From an uncultured Gammaproteobacteria bacterium (lineage in GTDB: Bacteria; Patescibacteriota; Patescibacteriia; UBA9934; GWF2-40-263): 64,000 bases of DNA. The position numbers and the translations under genes are program-made. The notes below the pieces were generated by a model. That model did no database searches. It was not told the origin of the DNA and saw only the letters and a program-made list of their open reading frames with translations. The stretch is taken from contig CAYOCD010000003.1 in assembly GCA_964402425.1 (NCBI GenBank), forward strand, positions 4,608 through 68,607, read 5' to 3'. Positions 5,665 to 34,635 of this stretch are shown here, piece after piece. The number at the start of each line of letters is the position of its first letter. The first letter of the stretch is position 1.

Positions 5665-7403
5665 CTCTGTTTTGTTTTCAGATCAACAATTCTTCCTTGC
5701 AGTTCTCTGTTTCCATTCCATTCATTGATCGACACCTCAAACGCCACATCAATCATATCACCCAATCGAAGATTCTCCATATGGAACCCAAACGAGAACC
5801 CGATCATCTTCATCGTCTTTCCGCTTGGTGACTGAATAGTGAGGCGCAAATGTTTTCCGTCCGCGCCGACTGTAGAAAGACCAACAATCGTGACCGAACG
5901 TGCGGCAAAAACGGGTGGAGGATTTCCCATGCCGAATGGTTTACATTTTTCAATTCCATCAACAAGTTCCCAATTCACATCTTCGAGTCGCATCTCTGCG
6001 TCAATAACAAGCGTTGCGACCGCATCATCATCAACCATACTTGTAGCAAGGGTCTCTCGCATGATCTTTGTTGCCGCTTCGAATGCCTCTGAACCACAAA
6101 TAGAGAGGCCACATGCTTGAGGGTGTCCGCCATATTTTTCGAGGTGCACAGATGCGGCATGAAGAGCAGGCATGAGATCAACTCGGTCAGGACTGCGGCC
6201 CGAACCCACAAAATGATCTCCTTCTTTTCCAAAGACAAATGTTGGAAGATTAAATTCATTTAATAATTTTCCAGCAACAAGCCCAACAAGCCCTGCTTGC
6301 CATCCATCTTGAAACAAAATAATACAACCTGTTGGCGTTTCAACGAGTTGCTTTTTTGCTTCTTTATACATTTCATCCGAGCGCGCTTGCCGCGCTTTGT
6401 TTGTTGCTTGTAATTTTATTGCTTTCTCTACGGCAACAGATTCATCTTCCTCGATCATGAGTTCAAGTGCATCGTACGCATGTGCCATGCGCCCAGCCGC
6501 GTTCAAACGTGGACCGATTTGAAATCCGATCGACGTAGTATCAAGTTCTCCAATTTTTCCTCCCGCAATTTCAATAAGCGCCCTGAGTCCTGGTCTTTTC
6601 GTTTTATTAAGAACAAGAAGTCCAAAAATCTCAAGCACACGATTCTCTCCTGTGAGTGGAACCATGTCTGTGACAGTTGCGATCGCGACCAAATCGAGAA
6701 GCCATTTTTCATGACCTTGCGGAAATGAAGCACCGCGAGATCGAGCTTCGTCAATGAGGGCACTTGCAAGTTTGAACGCAACTCCTGTGCCACACAACTG
6801 TTTATTTAAAAATGTCTCACCTGGAACGAGTGGATGAATCAAGATCGCAGAATCCGGCAATTCTTTTGGCATGGTGTGATGATCGCACACAATCGTATCG
6901 ATTCCATAAGACTTCGCAAGATCAATTGCAGGCTTATTTGAAATTCCACAATCAACCGTGATGATCAAATTTGTCTTCTCTCGAAGCTGTTCTGCTGTAT
7001 CTAGCGAAAAACCATACCCCTCGAGTTCACGATGTGGAATATAATAATCAATCTTTGACGCATCAAAATTCAGCGCGCGAGAAATATCGCGCAACGTTGA
7101 AACAAGAACAGTTGAACCACACACACCATCTGCGTCGTAATCGCCATGAACCGTAATGACCTCCCCCTTTAAGAAGGCGTCGAACACACGAGCAACAGCC
7201 GCGGGCATGTTTTGAAAAGTAAATGGAGAACATGTATCACGACTCCAGTCAGGCCCCAAAAATACATCCATCTCTTCTTGTGTTTTTATTCCTCGATTAT
7301 GGAGCAATTGTAAAAGCACCGGATGTTGTTCCGGAAACTGCGCAAAAAATTCTGGCCGAGCAGGCGCGGACGCGAGCCAACGTTTTGACATGTTAAAAAG
7401 CAA
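5661..7403 (-). CDS. recJ: Single-stranded-DNA-specific exonuclease RecJ
   Basis: DHH motifs (HGDYDADGV, DHH) and a DHHA1 C-terminal domain in a 580-aa product. Confidence 0.9.
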   Translation of the reverse strand: MLFNMSKRWLASAPARPEFFAQFPEQHPVLLQLLHNRGIKTQEEMDVFLGPDWSRDTCSPFTFQNMPAAVARVFDAFLKGEVITVHGDYDADGVCGSTVLVSTLRDISRALNFDASKIDYYIPHRELEGYGFSLDTAEQLREKTNLIITVDCGISNKPAIDLAKSYGIDTIVCDHHTMPKELPDSAILIHPLVPGETFLNKQLCGTGVAFKLASALIDEARSRGASFPQGHEKWLLDLVAIATVTDMVPLTGENRVLEIFGLLVLNKTKRPGLRALIEIAGGKIGELDTTSIGFQIGPRLNAAGRMAHAYDALELMIEEDESVAVEKAIKLQATNKARQARSDEMYKEAKKQLVETPTGCIILFQDGWQAGLVGLVAGKLLNEFNLPTFVFGKEGDHFVGSGRSPDRVDLMPALHAASVHLEKYGGHPQACGLSICGSEAFEAATKIMRETLATSMVDDDAVATLVIDAEMRLEDVNWELVDGIEKCKPFGMGNPPPVFAARSVTIVGLSTVGADGKHLRLTIQSPSGKTMKMIGFSFGFHMENLRLGDMIDVAFEVSINEWNGNRELQGRIVDLKTKQS

Positions 7404-15962: not shown

Positions 15963-16592
15963 CTACTTAGACGGCGCATTCTGACGAATAAAAAGACGAA
16001 TGGGTAATAAAAACAATGCACCAATCACCCCAACGAAGACAACCATCATAATTAATGTCCTAAATCCAAAACTTACTGCCATCACTCCTCCAATTACCGC
16101 GGCCCCAGCAGCACACAAGTCCGTAAGTGTGTAATAAATTCCCCACTCGCTTCCTTCTTTGTGTTTATCAATATGTTTTGTGAATAATGCCATGAAGGGC
16201 GGAAATGCTGCCGCAGCGGAAATTCCACAAATAAATTGTACAACGTACAGCTGCATAGGTGTATGAATAATCAAATAGGCAAGAGGAAGCAATGCGCTTA
16301 TAAGCGTTCCGATGAACATGAACCAAAAATCTACCTGTTCTCCCCGGATACGATCCATAATGGTTGCAAACGGAACTTGAAAAATACTTTTCGTAAACAA
16401 ATAAATAGACATAGCCACACCAACGACCTCTACCGTCCCACCCTCAATAAACCCTGAGATAAACAAAGCAAAGATCGGTCCAATGAATCCAACGCTTCCA
16501 CGCCAAATAATATCAGACATAATAAGAGAACGAATGACAGGGTTCATTCCTTGTAAAAAATATTGCCTCCAAAAAATAGCGCGTTGTTTCAT
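15963..16592 (-). CDS. Half-size (6-TM) MFS-like membrane protein, paralog 1
   Basis: Six hydrophobic segments. MDRIRGE resembles MFS motif A. About 50% identical to the adjacent gene. Confidence 0.55.
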   Translation of the reverse strand: MKQRAIFWRQYFLQGMNPVIRSLIMSDIIWRGSVGFIGPIFALFISGFIEGGTVEVVGVAMSIYLFTKSIFQVPFATIMDRIRGEQVDFWFMFIGTLISALLPLAYLIIHTPMQLYVVQFICGISAAAAFPPFMALFTKHIDKHKEGSEWGIYYTLTDLCAAGAAVIGGVMAVSFGFRTLIMMVVFVGVIGALFLLPIRLFIRQNAPSK

Positions 16593-16601
16593 AAGAAAAC
16601 A

Positions 16602-17214
16602 TTATTTCAAACGCATGTATGGACGAATCGGAATCAGAAACAGATTTCCAACAACACTGATCACGACCACAATCATAATCAATGAATGAAAACCAGAACT
16701 TGCCGCCATCACCCCTCCGATCGATGCGGCAATCGCGGAACTGAAATCTGTAAGCGTAAAATAAGTTCCCCATTCGCTACATTCTTTATCACGATCCATG
16801 TGACGCGAAATAATCGCCATGAATGAAGGAAATGTAGCCGCGACTGTTAAACCGTACACAAATTGCACGAAATACAATTGCATAGGAGTATGAATAAATA
16901 AATACAAAATCGGAGTTGTTGCAGCTAAAATAGATCCGATAAATAAAATCCAAAAATCATCTTTTTCGCCACGAATACGATCAATGATCGATGCAAACGG
17001 AATCTGAAAAACACTTTTTGTTAAAAGATAAATCGTTGCAGCAATACCCGCCACTTTTGCATCCCCACCCTGAATATAATCCACAATAAACAAAGAAAAA
17101 ATAGGGCCCAAAAATCCCCACGCCCCAATCCAAATCACATCAGACATAATCATGAACCGAACAACCGTATTCATGTCCAACAAGAAATATTCACGCAAAA
17201 AATAATTTTTTTTC
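16602..17214 (-). CDS. Half-size (6-TM) MFS-like membrane protein, paralog 2
   Basis: Collinear with paralog 1 (MKKNYFLREYFLLDMNTVVRFMIMSDVIW vs MKQRAIFWRQYFLQGMNPVIRSLIMSDIIW; IIDRIRGEKDDFW vs IMDRIRGEQVDFW). Confidence 0.55.
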
Positions 17215-17303
17215 ATACACAAAAGAAAGTATATCAAAAAAGAAGATTCTTCGCCGTTCAATCGGTTGACAAACACGATCTTTTTGCGTATTCTTCCACA
17301 GTT

Positions 17304-33028: not shown

Positions 33029-33184
33029 TTACATCTCATCTTCTTCCAATCCCATATCTAATGGATTTTCATCTTCTCCCTTAAAATCAACACCTTCATT
33101 TTTTGCACAATCAGAACACATTTCGTCCTCATTGATGTCAATTTCCTCTGCTCCACAGACAGAGCATGTTCCTGTGTCTTCCAT
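33029..33184 (-). CDS. Candidate 51-aa acidic zinc-ribbon protein (MEDTGTCSVCGAEEIDINEDEMCSDCAKNEGVDFKGEDENPLDMGLEEDEM)
   Basis: My own translation; below the ORF-track cutoff. It has a CxxC-x17-CxxC pattern and ends right at the bidirectional terminator. The longer 33058..33567 ORF in another frame overlaps the tRNA and is rejected. Confidence 0.3.
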   Translation of the reverse strand: MEDTGTCSVCGAEEIDINEDEMCSDCAKNEGVDFKGEDENPLDMGLEEDEM

Positions 33185-33317
33185 AAAAAAAATAGATTAC
33201 GCATTAATGAAACAATCTTAATATAAACAAAGATGCGTTGCAACGACGTGTCAAGGTATAGAAGACAACCCTCTAAATGAAAACAAAAACATCGAACTCT
33301 AGGTTCGATGTTTTTGT

Positions 33318-33392
33318 TGGTGCGCCGGGCGGGGATCGGACCCGCGACCTTGGGCTTAAAAGGCCCCTGCTCTACCACTGAGCTACCAGCGC
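33318..33392 (-). tRNA. tRNA-Lys (anticodon UUU)
   Basis: Minus-strand sequence GCGCUGGUAGCUCAGUGGUAGAGCAGGGGCCUUUUAAGCCCAAGGUCGCGGGUCCGAUCCCCGCCCGGCGCACCA. The anticodon loop CUUUUAA is identical to E. coli tRNA-Lys, and CCA is encoded. Confidence 0.85.
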
Positions 33393-33516
33393 ATAAACTT
33401 TCAAAATTTGCGCCCAGCCAGCTTAACCCTGCGCTCCGCGTTCGAAGGGGTTTTGGCCCCATCTCACTTGCAGTGCTCGGTCTGCGCCGACTGTGCATCA
33501 AATTTTGAAAGTTTAT
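33391..33516. repeat. 126-nt palindromic element abutting the tRNA-Lys 5' end: perfect 20-bp AT-rich inverted repeats (gcataaactttcaaaatttg / caaattttgaaagtttatgc) around an 86-nt GC-rich core
   Basis: Seen directly. The core contains the ggggccaaaacccc hairpin. The element lies in the tRNA leader, downstream of a TTGCCA-17-TATATT promoter. Confidence 0.5.
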
Positions 33517-33548
33517 GCACGCAACACACCTCGTCTTTAACGAGCGGA

Positions 33549-33577
33549 AATATATCAGACGAATCATAAAATGGCAA
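33549..33577 (-). promoter_or_regulatory. Promoter (TTGCCA, 17-nt spacer, TATATT) for the tRNA-Lys transcript
   Basis: The reverse complement reads TTGCCAttttatgattcgtctgaTATATT. The gagggg...cccctc hairpin just upstream follows the murG stop. Confidence 0.45.
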
Positions 33578-33588
33578 GAGGGGGTTAA

Positions 33589-34635
33589 TTATCCCCTCAA
33601 CATCTGCACAATCTTTTCCGCACAATCGGTCTCAAGTGCAATACCAAGGCGTTGCCCCATACCAAGACGTATGAGGGGGTCGTTGAGTAATCGGCGAATA
33701 TGGTTCAAAAGTTCTTGAGGGGTCGTTGTTTGCTGATGTAAGACGAGAGCGTCACAATGAATCGCTTTCGCATTGTCTTCCTGCGGCGAGTTTGGCAGCG
33801 GAAGAATGATTGAGGCTTTTTTCAGTGCCGCAAGCTCTGAGATGGCACCGGCTCCCGCACGGGAGACAACAACATCCGCAATCGCGTATGCATCCGGCAT
33901 CTCATCCATCATGGATTCGATCACAAAATATCCCGGTTTCGATAGAGCTCCACCGAGTTTTCCCTTCCCTGTTACATGAATCACATTTGTGATCGCGAGC
34001 AGTTCATCAAGTATCTCCCCCACACTCTCATTAATCCATTGCGACCCTGTTCCGCCACCAAAGACAAATACGGTTGGTTTCTTTGGATCACATCCAAAGC
34101 GTATTTCTGCACGCTCTTTGATTCCTTGTTTCACTCCTTCACGAACTGGATTTCCCACCACAATTGTTTTAGACACAGGAAACGCACGACGCGTTTTTTC
34201 CCATGCAACCGTGATCCATGTTGCAAACGGCGCAAGCAAACGATTCGTCATGATTGGGTGAACATCTGACTGATGAATCCAAGACGGAACCCCCATCATA
34301 AATCCAACCACCACGATAGGGACACTTGTGTATCCACCCGCTGCTGCGATCAAATTTGGTTTTTCGTTCACAAGAATCACAAATGACTGCACACACGCAA
34401 TCAAAAAACGAAATGGAGCTGTCATCCACTCTGTCGAAACATGCCGCACAAGACGCGCTGTCATGATGAACCGAAATCGAACCCCTTCTTTCTTAATAAA
34501 TTCCCGCTCTGGCCCGTTCTTTGTTCCAACCCAAACAAATTCGATCTCAGGATCGCGCTTCTTCCAAGACTCAGCAACAGCAAGAAGTGGCGTCACAGGA
34601 CCAAGCGTTCCACCACCAGTGAATAATATTTTCAT
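33589..34635 (-). CDS. murG: Undecaprenyldiphospho-muramoylpentapeptide beta-N-acetylglucosaminyltransferase
   Basis: MKILFTGGGTLGPVTPLLAV... is a GT28 N-terminus, with the C-terminal G-loop FVFGGGTGS. Confidence 0.85.
   Translation of the reverse strand: MKILFTGGGTLGPVTPLLAVAESWKKRDPEIEFVWVGTKNGPEREFIKKEGVRFRFIMTARLVRHVSTEWMTAPFRFLIACVQSFVILVNEKPNLIAAAGGYTSVPIVVVGFMMGVPSWIHQSDVHPIMTNRLLAPFATWITVAWEKTRRAFPVSKTIVVGNPVREGVKQGIKERAEIRFGCDPKKPTVFVFGGGTGSQWINESVGEILDELLAITNVIHVTGKGKLGGALSKPGYFVIESMMDEMPDAYAIADVVVSRAGAGAISELAALKKASIILPLPNSPQEDNAKAIHCDALVLHQQTTTPQELLNHIRRLLNDPLIRLGMGQRLGIALETDCAEKIVQMLRG

What the first reader, a model, noticed from the sequence alone, without database searches (positions are those of the whole stretch)
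33391..33590. 126-nt palindromic element (perfect 20-bp AT-rich inverted repeats around an 86-nt GC-rich core) abuts the 5' end of tRNA-Lys, inside a split cell-wall gene cluster
The element gcataaactttcaaaatttg...caaattttgaaagtttatgc overlaps the tRNA-Lys 5' end by 2 nt. It lies between the tRNA and its TTGCCA-17-TATATT promoter, so it is transcribed as the tRNA leader. Perfect terminal inverted repeats around a compositionally distinct core are the hallmark of a MITE-like insertion.

Alternatively, this is another instance of the GC-rich structured tRNA leaders seen at tRNA-Gln and tRNA-Thr. All three tRNA genes in this window share the pattern: a consensus-like promoter, then a 100-190-nt hairpin-rich GC-rich leader, then the tRNA.

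The tRNA plus element also separates murG-ftsW-mraY from the rest of the cell-wall genes.
Basis: partly seen in the sequence, partly recalled or inferred. Interest (0 to 1): 0.5.

Follow-up and report, generated by a model that had tools for sequence, protein, structure and literature searches.

The report
Dispersed hairpin repeat abutting tRNA genes
The palindrome in front of tRNA-Lys is real and is one copy of an apparently undescribed 128-nt hairpin repeat family of ultra-small (CPR/Patescibacteria) bacteria that sits exactly against the 5' end of many different tRNA genes and is copied, swapped, duplicated and deleted between close relatives.

Summary
A perfect 20-nt inverted repeat (33391-33410 / 33499-33518) encloses an 88-nt GC-rich core, so the element is 128 nt, not 126. 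It overlaps tRNA-Lys(UUU) by 2 nt and lies downstream of a TTGCCA-17-TATATT promoter.

The whole element folds as one long hairpin. The window is from Candidatus Uhrbacteria.

The element is neither a one-off nor a locus-specific leader. Related copies abut the +1 position of six tRNA species (Lys-UUU, Lys-CUU, Glu, Ile, Leu-UAA, Met), all in sense orientation, and also the start codon of rpmA. Shorter-armed relatives sit in operon spacers of Saccharibacteria.

Thirteen distinct copies support a 44-bp hairpin. Thirty of those pairs show compensatory changes, and G-U pairs fall almost only on the tRNA-sense strand.

At the tRNA-Lys locus the element is ancestral but unstable. It has been replaced by other subtypes, duplicated in tandem with a truncated upstream copy, or deleted leaving a 3'-arm stub.

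I found no target-site duplication, no transposase in the window, no Rfam family and no paper describing it.

Best reading: a mobile or gene-converting palindromic repeat of the ERIC/Correia kind, transcribed in the pre-tRNA leader and removed by RNase P. How it spreads and whether it has a function are unknown.

The parts
33549..33577 (-). Promoter of the tRNA-Lys transcription unit: -35 TTGCCA (33577-33572), 17-nt spacer with TG, -10 TATATT (33554-33549). The inferred start is near 33542.
   Evidence: Consensus scan. The same promoter and the following TTCGCTCGTTA motif are conserved in all orthologous loci. The start site is inferred, not mapped.
33519..33542 (-). 5' part of the leader upstream of the hairpin. 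Its last ~9 nt (GTGTTGCGT, 33527-33519) are a flank that travels with the element (consensus ACGUYGCGU).
   Evidence: A flank ending in GT precedes the 5' arm of the tRNA- and rpmA-linked copies (Met is ambiguous by 1 nt, depending on where the arm is taken to start), including copies at other tRNAs and the junction between tandem copies. Nothing matches it on the 3' side.
33499..33518 (-). 5' arm of the hairpin (RNA sense GCAUAAACUUUCAAAAUUUG), stem P1.
   Evidence: Covariation in P1 across 13 copies.
33479..33498 (-). Lower core, 5' strand (AUGCACAGUCGGCGCAGACC). It pairs with 33411-33429. This is the subtype-specific part (type A).
   Evidence: Compensatory replacement CAGUCGGC/GCUGGCUG versus AAAUUGAU/AUCAAUUU between subtypes.
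33463..33478 (-). Conserved central motif, 5' strand: GAGCACUGCAAGUGAG.
   Evidence: Nearly invariant in copies from Uhrbacteria and Saccharibacteria. Most of these copies were found with a pattern that requires this motif, so its invariance is partly ascertainment.
33444..33462 (-). Variable apical hairpin (AUGGGGCCAAAACCCCUUC).
   Evidence: Replaced by other hairpins with full compensation (CCGUAC.., GGGCA.., UGUAGG..).
33430..33443 (-). Conserved central motif, 3' strand: GAACGCGGAGCGCA. With the 5' motif it forms a helix holding an A-A mismatch, an AA bulge and tandem G-A/A-G.
   Evidence: The non-canonical pairs were read off the alignment by eye.
33411..33429 (-). Lower core, 3' strand (GGGUUAAGCUGGCUGGGCG).
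33391..33410 (-). 3' arm of the hairpin (CAAAUUUUGAAAGUUUAUGC). Its last two bases are tRNA positions 1-2.
   Evidence: In other copies the 3' arm ends 0-1 nt from tRNA +1.
33318..33392 (-). tRNA-Lys(UUU) with encoded CCA.
   Evidence: ARAGORN; Rfam tRNA, 67.4 bits.
33282..33318 (-). Intrinsic terminator of the tRNA unit (16-bp stem plus T run).
   Evidence: Conserved in relatives.

Best explanation
The element is one copy of a dispersed family of ~128-nt imperfect-palindrome repeats in Patescibacteria (CPR bacteria). The window itself is from Candidatus Uhrbacteria.

Shown:
- A copy is a ~9-nt 5' flank followed by one long hairpin. The hairpin has a 19-20-bp AU-rich basal stem, a subtype-specific lower stem, a conserved central internal-loop motif and a variable apical hairpin.
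- In Uhrbacteria the copies sit in the 5' leader of tRNA genes, always in the tRNA's orientation. The 3' foot of the hairpin lies exactly at tRNA +1, with 0-2 nt shared.
- The fold is maintained by compensatory changes, with G-U pairs on the tRNA-sense strand.
- Copies are exchanged between loci, duplicated in tandem and deleted.

Inferred:
- The window copy is transcribed from the TTGCCA-17-TATATT promoter as part of pre-tRNA-Lys. It folds as a hairpin and is cut off in one piece when RNase P cleaves at +1.
- The family spreads by copy-and-paste recombination. Candidates are gene conversion between copies, or illegitimate joining with 0-2 nt of microhomology at the tRNA end. It does not use cut-and-paste transposition with target duplication.
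- It persists in tRNA leaders because RNase P removes it, so it does little harm there.
- The conserved central motif is most likely a protein-binding site, for whatever copies or processes the element.

In short, it works like the ERIC/Correia class of transcribed palindromic repeats. What sets it apart is the fixed junction with the mature tRNA 5' end.
For: Fold: -67.1 kcal/mol, z = -9.

Family: a core-pattern scan of metagenomes gave 16 loci, 11 of them distinct. The hairpin ends 0-2 nt from +1 of Lys-UUU, Lys-CUU, Glu-CUC, Ile-UAU, Leu-UAA and Met-CAU, and directly before the ATG of rpmA.

Structure: 44 consensus pairs, 30 with compensatory changes. Cells paired: 96.7%, against 81% in shuffles (0 of 500 reach the observed value) and 31-45% in slid controls.

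Strand: 30 G-U cells against 4 A-C cells, p = 6e-6. The sense strand folds better in every copy.

Copying between loci:
- L040 (tRNA-Lys-CUU) and L047 (tRNA-Glu), from one metagenome, are 98% identical.
- The window copy is 89% identical to the tRNA-Glu copy but only 69-70% to the copies at the orthologous site in two of its closest relatives (L024/L026).
- Two full copies lie at different genes on one contig (L045).

Turnover at the tRNA-Lys locus:
- Subtype A in the window, L023 and L031; subtype B in L024 and L026.
- A half of A followed by a full C in L016/L030.
- A truncated copy followed by a full one in L031.
- A 3'-arm stub only in L028, L029 and L032.
- The MurG tree puts the element in an outgroup and in two ingroup clades, so it is ancestral and was lost at least twice.

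The default tRNA leader in these genomes is short and unstructured. The promoter is conserved upstream of every copy at this locus.
Against: - No transcript data exist. Co-transcription and RNase P release follow from gene order and general tRNA biology and are not shown.
- There is no TSD, no TA termini, no transposase among the window ORFs scanned and no whole genome to count copies in. 'Mobile' therefore rests on the sequence relationships between copies.
- A passive-passenger model does not explain why the hairpin foot is exactly at +1 in six of six tRNA species. That points to a targeting mechanism or to selection on function.
- Four copies are antisense to the flanking genes and have no evident promoter of their own (three in Saccharibacteria-type contigs, one in L028). 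Yet their 'sense' strand still folds better. This fits a single-stranded-DNA stage as well as, or better than, an RNA role.
- Most copies were found with a pattern that demands the core. Copies found in other ways (L016b, L045-Lys, L028) have more diverged cores.
Confidence: 0.6

Rival explanations
1. A dedicated cis-acting leader module. The hairpin is kept because it controls pre-tRNA maturation. For example, its 20-bp perfect basal stem could be an RNase III entry site that trims the leader before RNase P acts. Or, stacked on the acceptor stem, it could slow or set RNase P cleavage. At rpmA, cleavage at the hairpin foot would create a leaderless mRNA.
For: - Exact abutment to +1 in six tRNA species and to the rpmA ATG, always in sense orientation.
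- The basal stem is held at a constant 19-20 contiguous base pairs by compensatory changes, and G-U pairs occur on the sense strand only.
- In tandem arrays only the tRNA-proximal copy is intact. Upstream copies lose their 3' part.
- The element has been retained at the tRNA-Lys leader from an outgroup with 55% MurG identity through to the window.
Against: - It is dispensable. Three related lineages have reduced it to a 3'-arm stub of about 7-14 nt, and most tRNAs in the same contigs have plain short leaders.
- Subtypes are swapped between sister lineages (L023 versus L024, 89% MurG identity).
- Copies lie antisense inside Saccharibacteria-type operons.
- No nuclease data are available.
Confidence: 0.2
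2. A trans-acting small RNA that borrows the tRNA gene. The tRNA promoter drives its expression and RNase P cleavage creates its flush 3' end. The released hairpin, through its conserved internal-loop motif and 5' tail, then binds or sequesters a protein.
For: - The conserved central motif holds non-canonical pairs, and the 5' flank is conserved.
- The 3' end is precisely defined by the tRNA.
- The same RNA occurs behind several strong promoters in one genome (L045; L040/L047).
- RNase P or RNase Z release of tRNA-linked RNAs is established elsewhere, for example MALAT1-mascRNA and the MHV68 tRNA-pre-miRNA units (my own knowledge).
Against: - Copies within operon spacers, and antisense copies, have no tRNA to define an end.
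- The element has been lost in several lineages.
- No expression data and no candidate partner protein are available.
Confidence: 0.1
3. A DNA-level element that moves through a folded single strand, in the manner of IS200/IS605-derived palindromic elements or REP/RAYT. A trans-acting HUH or tyrosine transposase would recognise the imperfect hairpin and insert it next to a short flank motif without target duplication.
For: - No TSD in 16 copies.
- A conserved 5' flank ending in GT and conserved mismatches and bulges in the hairpin.
- One strand always folds better, even where that strand is antisense to the surrounding operon and has no promoter.
Against: - No Y1, HUH or other transposase was found in the window ORFs or in the Pfam-annotated genes of 12 related loci.
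- The build differs: one 128-nt hairpin with terminal repeats, not two subterminal hairpins.
- This model does not explain the junction at tRNA +1.
Confidence: 0.1

Closest known systems
ERIC / IRU elements of enterobacteria (127-bp imperfect palindromes)
   Same: Almost the same size. They are non-coding, dispersed in transcribed intergenic regions, and co-transcribed with the flanking genes as a long stem-loop. Orientation matters for their effect on the RNA (PMC2229807).
   Different: The review's table lists a TSD, TA termini and a 7-bp TIR for ERIC. This family has 19-20-bp arms, no TSD and a fixed junction with tRNA +1, and it occurs in a different phylum.
Correia / NEMIS elements of Neisseria
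   Same: A MITE-like repeat of 100-155 bp with long terminal inverted repeats (~24 bp). The transcript forms a hairpin that has been proposed as an RNase III substrate affecting neighbouring genes (PMC2229807).
   Different: Correia elements have a TA duplication and often an IHF site. They are not tied to tRNA 5' ends. RNase III cleavage of the present hairpin is only conjecture.
Rickettsia palindromic elements (RPE) and YPAL
   Same: Palindromic repeats. The review notes fusions of repeat elements with RNA genes in general. YPAL lacks TA termini and inserts at or next to dyad symmetries (PMC2229807). That RPEs sit within genes is my own knowledge.
   Different: RPEs insert within coding or RNA sequence and YPAL makes 3-26-bp TSDs. 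Here there is no TSD and the tRNA itself is untouched.
tRNA-linked non-coding RNAs released by tRNA-processing enzymes (MALAT1-mascRNA via RNase P; MHV68 tRNA-pre-miRNA via RNase Z; E. coli 3'ETS-leuZ)
   Same: A structured RNA is physically fused to a tRNA or tRNA-like unit, so that a tRNA-end nuclease defines its terminus (my own knowledge).
   Different: Those are single, conserved loci with demonstrated products. Here there is a multi-copy, exchangeable element with no expression data.

Membership tests
Classical bacterial MITE | Short (<200-300 bp), non-coding | tested here: met
   128 nt. The ATG-started frame in the window copy hits a stop after 3 codons in subtype B (sequence read).
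Classical bacterial MITE | Terminal inverted repeats shared among copies | tested here: met
   The arms are 19-20 bp and homologous across copies, with consensus GCAUAAACUUUCNAAAUUKG.
Classical bacterial MITE | Target-site duplication flanking the element (often TA) | tested here: not met
   None in 16 copies. The flanks share at most 1 nt at the junction, and the termini are not TA.
Classical bacterial MITE | Several dispersed, similar copies within one genome | tested here: inconclusive
   Two full copies lie on one contig (L045). A 98%-identical pair sits at two tRNAs in one metagenome (L040/L047). There is only one copy in the 64-kb window, and no whole genome could be searched.
Classical bacterial MITE | A cognate transposase or parent IS with the same terminal repeats | tested here: inconclusive
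   No transposase, integrase or RT was found among about 48 window ORFs or in the Pfam-annotated genes of related loci. The rest of the genome was not available.
Classical bacterial MITE | Clean filled and empty sites in relatives | tested here: not met
   The element-less tRNA-Lys leaders (L028, L029, L032) keep a 3'-arm stub (for example GAGAAGTTTATGC), so they are deletions rather than empty sites.
REP/BIME (RAYT-mobilised) | An imperfect palindrome of ~20-40 nt with a conserved 5' tetranucleotide (GTAG), many copies, and a RAYT gene | tested here: not met
   The hairpin is 128 nt, the 5' flank is ACGUYGCGU rather than GTAG, and no RAYT or Y1 transposase was seen. The defining features are from my own knowledge.
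IS200/IS605-derived palindromic element | Two subterminal hairpins, no terminal repeats, insertion 3' of a fixed tetra- or pentanucleotide, no TSD | tested here: inconclusive
   No TSD and a conserved flank ending in GT are compatible. A single terminal-repeat hairpin is not. TnpA was not found but is not testable genome-wide. The defining features are from my own knowledge.
Any curated Rfam family (release 15) | A match to a covariance model | tested here: not met
   Only tRNA matched at gathering score in the window and in 13 related loci. Nothing overlaps the element even at E <= 10.
Structured tRNA 5' leader (5' external transcribed spacer) | Lies between the promoter and tRNA +1 on the tRNA strand | tested here: met
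   The same arrangement occurs in 7 lineages at this locus.
Structured tRNA 5' leader (5' external transcribed spacer) | Co-transcribed and removed by RNase P | not testable with these tools
   Needs RNA-end mapping or in vitro cleavage.
Integron attC site | RYYYAAC / GTTRRRY core sites, cassette array, nearby IntI | tested here: not met
   The arm ends CATAAAC/GTTTATG do not fit the core-site consensus (sequence). There is no integrase or cassette array. The defining features are from my own knowledge.

The most novel reading that the evidence does not exclude
The hairpin is a new kind of tRNA-coupled mobile RNA cassette whose copying passes through processed RNA ends. The right-hand junction always falls on the mature tRNA 5' end, which is a boundary that exists only in RNA. 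The junction shares 0-2 nt of microhomology, the orientation is always sense, and the 5' boundary is fixed ~9 nt upstream of the hairpin. A template switch or ligation between the RNase P-released hairpin and a mature tRNA (or a leaderless mRNA such as rpmA), followed by recombination of the copy into the gene, would produce exactly this pattern. A related possibility is that a dedicated nuclease cuts at the hairpin foot and so defines 5' ends independently of RNase P.
Probability: 0.1. Interest if true: 0.85.

Novelty: new variant of a known kind. Interest (0 to 1): 0.6.

Why it matters
CPR/Patescibacteria have tiny genomes (about 1 Mb) with very little intergenic DNA and few recognised mobile elements. 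A covarying 128-nt hairpin shared between Uhrbacteria and Saccharibacteria is therefore unexpected.

If it is a passenger, it shows that tRNA leaders act as safe harbours for selfish palindromes, because RNase P erases them from the product. It would also explain assembly breaks in MAGs at these sites.

If it is functional, it is a candidate new RNA motif in pre-tRNA maturation or a new tRNA-linked small RNA.

Either way, the fixed junction at the mature tRNA 5' end is a concrete and testable oddity. The covariance model built here gives a handle for annotating the family across CPR genomes.

Tried and rejected
- **Chance palindrome.** Rejected by shuffles.
- **Known RNA family.** Rfam at gathering score and at E <= 10 gives only tRNA.
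- **Multi-copy test with the exact 20-mer** across 185,579 species genomes. The only relevant hit is the orthologous leader of Uhrbacteria 47_17, and it is single-copy there. The other 21 hits are single matches in unrelated taxa. One of them, in a Gracilibacteria contig, has no inverted partner.
- **Viral origin.** The core pattern has no match in IMG/VR.
- **TSDs.** None were found, whether immediate or within 20 nt of each flank.
- **Peptide-coding core.** The ATG after the 5' arm opens a frame in the window copy, but subtype B reads ATG CAA AAT TGA.
- **The 5' flank pairing with the tRNA 3' acceptor strand.** RNAfold predicts this for the window copy. However, the same flank precedes copies at tRNAs with unrelated acceptor stems, so there is no covariation (by eye).
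- **The 5' flank pairing with CGCAA of the core as a pseudoknot.** The flank varies while the core does not, so this is unsupported (by eye).
- **Resemblance of GAGCCGUAC..GUACGGU to group II intron domain V.** That stretch is the variable apical hairpin and is absent from the window copy.
- **K-turn or sarcin-ricin readings of the central loop.** The registers do not fit the consensus (by eye, my own knowledge).
- **attC site.** Rejected; see the membership test.
- **The tRNA-Gln and tRNA-Thr leaders as members of the same family.** The covariance model gives no hit and their architectures differ.
- **Literature.** Five full-text searches found nothing on such an element in CPR bacteria.
- **The exact window MurG protein.** It is not on record, so orthologous loci were reached through homologues instead.
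Full report
**1. The observation**

The window holds a perfect 20-nt inverted repeat, 33391-33410 / 33499-33518, separated by 88 nt. The element is therefore 128 nt long, not 126.

The 20-mer, allowing three mismatches, occurs nowhere else in the 64 kb. Shuffles expect 0.04 matches.

The arms are 25% GC and the core is 63.6% GC.

tRNA-Lys(UUU) occupies 33318-33392 on the minus strand, so the last GC of the 3' arm is tRNA positions 1-2.

A TTGCCA-17-TATATT promoter-like site with a TG extension lies at 33577->33549. A 16-bp terminator lies at 33318->33282.

mraY, ftsW and murG lie upstream.

One correction: the whole 128 nt folds as a single long imperfect hairpin (-67.1 kcal/mol, z = -9). It is not a pair of arms around an unrelated core.

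**2. Organism and the orthologous locus**

The window MurG has homologues at about 70-80% identity that carry Candidatus Uhrbacteria names.

I read the murG-tRNA-Lys region in ten further lineages. The promoter and the following TTCGCTCGTTA motif are conserved in all of them. What lies between that motif and the tRNA is not:

| Locus | Content of the tRNA-Lys leader |
|---|---|
| window, L023, L031 | Full element of one subtype (A) |
| L024/L025, L026/L027 | Full element of subtype B. Arms and lower stem differ with full compensation. The middle is conserved |
| L016/L030 | Left half of an A copy (1 mismatch to the window over ~66 nt, although MurG is only 67-69% identical), then GGAATGCGT, then a complete third subtype (C) abutting the tRNA |
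| L031 | A 3'-truncated copy, then TGCGT, then a full copy |
| L045/L046 (outgroup, 55% MurG identity) | A fourth subtype (D) plus an upstream remnant |
| L028, L029, L032 | No element |

The short leaders of L028, L029 and L032 still end with the last bases of the 3' arm. For example, L028 reads ttcgctcgtta-GAGAAGTTTATGC-tRNA.

On a MurG neighbour-joining tree the element is present in the outgroup and in two ingroup clades. It is absent from one clade (L028 + L029) and from L032. L023 (subtype A) and L024 (subtype B) are sisters at 89% MurG identity.

The element is therefore ancestral at this site. It has been lost at least twice by deletion, and subtypes have been replaced recently.

**3. 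It is a family, and it sits at many tRNAs**

I scanned JGI metagenomes with the conserved middle, GCACYGCAAGTGAG-N10-30-GAACGCGGAGC. This returned 16 loci, 11 of them distinct. IMG/VR returned none.

In the Uhrbacteria-like contigs the same ~128-nt hairpin precedes:
- tRNA-Leu(UAA)
- tRNA-Met(CAU), where it fills the Leu(CAA)-Met spacer
- tRNA-Glu(CUC)
- tRNA-Ile(UAU)
- tRNA-Lys(CUU)

It also lies directly before the ATG of rpmA.

In every tRNA case the element is in the tRNA's orientation. The 3' arm ends 42 nt after the conserved GGAGC (40 nt at tRNA-Ile), at tRNA +1. The overlap is 0 nt for Leu, Met, Glu and Lys-CUU, 1 nt for Ile and 2 nt for Lys-UUU.

Other tRNAs on the same contigs (Gly, Leu-CAA, Val, Arg) have short plain leaders. 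The hairpin is therefore an addition and not the norm.

Tandem arrangements recur at Glu and Ile. The upstream copy is partial and the tRNA-proximal copy is intact.

A shorter-armed subfamily with an almost identical middle occurs in four other contigs, lying in operon spacers:
- L033: atpE|atpF
- L038: rpmH|rnpA
- L044: rpsH|rplF
- L036: rpsJ|rplC

Three of the four are antisense to the operon. L038 is assigned to Saccharibacteria from YidC homologues; the other three are assumed to be similar.

A diverged stand-alone copy overlaps the stop codon of a DUF378 gene in L028, again antisense.

**4. Structure**

Thirteen distinct full copies align to a 44-bp consensus hairpin, and 30 pairs show compensatory changes.

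| Measure | Observed | Control |
|---|---|---|
| Cells forming standard pairs | 96.7% | 81% in column shuffles (0 of 500 reach the observed value); 31-45% with slid partners |
| Covariation score | 0.47 | 0.175 in shuffles |

G-U pairs number 30 on the tRNA-sense strand, against 4 A-C cells (p = 6e-6). Without one nearly invariant pair the count is 18 against 4.

The sense strand folds 1-17 kcal/mol better than its complement in every copy. This includes the copies that are antisense to their operon.

The invariant middle forms a helix with an A-A mismatch, an AA bulge and tandem G-A/A-G pairs (read by eye). That is the kind of irregular helix that proteins recognise.

Caveat: most copies were found with a pattern that requires this middle. 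Copies found by other routes (L016b, L045-Lys, L028) are more diverged there.

**5. Evidence for copying between loci**

The window copy has these identities to other copies:

| Compared with | Identity |
|---|---|
| L031 (Lys-UUU) | 91% |
| L047 (tRNA-Glu) | 89% |
| L040 (tRNA-Lys-CUU) | 88% |
| L024/L026 (orthologous site in two of the closest relatives) | 69-70% |
| L016b | 59% |
| L045-Lys | 57% |

L040 and L047 come from the same metagenome and sit at two different tRNAs, yet they are 98% identical.

L045 carries a subtype-B copy at rpmA and a subtype-D copy at tRNA-Lys, 4.7 kb apart.

A ~9-nt flank ending in GT (consensus ACGUYGCGU) travels with the 5' side of the hairpin, even into tandem junctions. 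Nothing corresponds to it on the 3' side.

None of 16 copies has a target-site duplication.

No transposase, integrase or reverse transcriptase was found among about 48 window ORFs or in the Pfam-annotated genes of the related loci.

The covariance model finds only one copy in the 64-kb window.

**6. Interpretation**

Shown:
- a covarying hairpin repeat family
- a fixed junction with tRNA +1
- sense orientation at all six tRNA species
- turnover at the tRNA-Lys locus and near-identical copies at different loci
- no TSD

Inferred:
- transcription from the tRNA promoter
- release by RNase P
- spread by recombination or gene conversion (0-2 nt are shared at the tRNA junction)
- tolerance in leaders because RNase P removes the element

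The behaviour is closest to ERIC and Correia elements. These are transcribed palindromic repeats whose hairpins interact with RNase E or RNase III (PMC2229807).

The element nevertheless fails the TSD, TA-terminus and empty-site criteria of a classical MITE.

The exact junction at a boundary that exists only in RNA is not explained by a passive-passenger model. That keeps three rivals alive:
- a cis-acting processing module
- an RNase P-released small RNA
- a single-stranded-DNA transposon

The antisense copies in operon spacers, which have no promoter of their own, argue that an RNA role in cis is not universal for the family.

**7.

Both leaders are strongly structured (-69.5 and -58.9 kcal/mol over the last 160 nt). 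They are unrelated to this family.

The tRNA-Thr leader is a copy of tRNA positions 1-15 and ~16-25, with two CCCCGAC..GTCGGGG-type hairpins between them, followed by 12 nt and then the real tRNA. The same design is found in L050 and L051 but not in L049.

The tRNA-Gln(CUG) leader is a ~124-nt nested hairpin that ends 11 nt before the tRNA. Relatives have a tRNA-Gln(UUG) on the other strand at that place. In L051 that leader contains a tandem duplicate of the leader plus the first 10 nt of the tRNA.

tRNA 5' regions in this clade are thus general hot spots for hairpin insertion and partial duplication. The three window leaders are, however, three different things.

**8. Novelty and verdict**

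No Rfam family matches and no paper was found.

I class the element as a new variant of a known kind: transcribed palindromic intergenic repeats. Its unusual feature is a precise coupling to tRNA 5' ends, in a phylum where such repeats have not, to my knowledge, been described.

Interest is 0.6. The most novel reading not excluded is RNA-end-mediated copying, or a nuclease that defines 5' ends at the hairpin foot. I put this at about 0.1 probability.

Noticed in passing
window 22730-22813 (minus strand), upstream of tRNA-Thr(CGU) 22654-22729; also L050:~2430-2567 and L051:~2455-2569: The tRNA-Thr leader carries a pseudo 5' half of the tRNA: GCCGATGTAGCTCAG, then two CCCCGAC..GTCGGGG-type hairpins, then TTGGTAGAGC, then ~12 nt before the real tRNA. 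The design is conserved in two other Uhrbacteria lineages and absent from L049, which has a 13-nt plain leader. Homology of the pseudo-copy starts exactly at tRNA +1.
   Followed up: partly
window 20243-20366 (minus strand), upstream of tRNA-Gln(CUG) 20158-20231: A ~124-nt nested hairpin (ggaatgacc...ggtcattcc, with an inner 20-bp stem) ends 11 nt before the tRNA. It is unrelated in sequence to the tRNA-Lys element. Relatives have a tRNA-Gln(UUG) on the opposite strand after ftsX instead. In L051 that leader contains a tandem duplicate of ~35 nt (leader plus the first 10 nt of the tRNA).
   Followed up: partly
L031:~6720-6812 (rpmA leader) and L050:~2455-2555 (tRNA-Thr leader), both from GCA_964558785.1: Runs of ~100 N sit exactly where relatives carry hairpin insertions (the rpmA leader in L045; the tRNA-Thr leader in the window and L051). 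These are probably scaffold gaps caused by the repeats or palindromes, and they may hide further copies.
   Followed up: no
L016:5193-5258 / L030:11140-11205 versus window 33453-33518: The left half of the window element, together with the promoter and leader, is nearly identical to Uhrbacteria 47_17/47_44 (1 mismatch in ~66 nt). MurG next door is only 67-69% identical, while FtsX is 89% identical. This suggests recombination or very uneven divergence across the genome.
   Followed up: partly
L029, L031, L032 versus the window: The whole tRNA-Lys cassette (promoter, leader, tRNA, terminator) is inverted relative to murG in three lineages. It is convergent there and co-directional in the window.
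   Followed up: no
L035:2758-2960: Rfam group I intron hit (66 bits) about 0.5 kb downstream of the tRNA-Leu/tRNA-Met pair that carries a hairpin copy. It may lie in an unannotated tRNA, as has been reported for Patescibacteria (PMC13011429, abstract only).
   Followed up: no
window 33058-33192 (minus strand); also L024:4446-4601 and L032:2076-2237: A small conserved Cys-rich ORF (MEDTGTCSVCGAEEIDINEDEMCSDCAK...) lies just downstream of the tRNA-Lys unit and has its own promoter-like region. It has no Pfam hit.
   Followed up: no
window 15963-16592 and 16602-17276 (minus strand): Two adjacent ORFs both match the N-terminal half of MFS_1. This could be a split or duplicated transporter gene, or a frameshift.
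   Followed up: no
window 33540-33548; L045:2163-2175; all tRNA-Lys loci: The sequence just after the -10 box (TTTCGCTCG / TTCCGCTCG) is shared by the tRNA-Lys promoters and by the rpmA promoter of L045. The window rpmA has TTTCGGACG. This may be a conserved start-site or discriminator motif of strong promoters in this clade.
   Followed up: no
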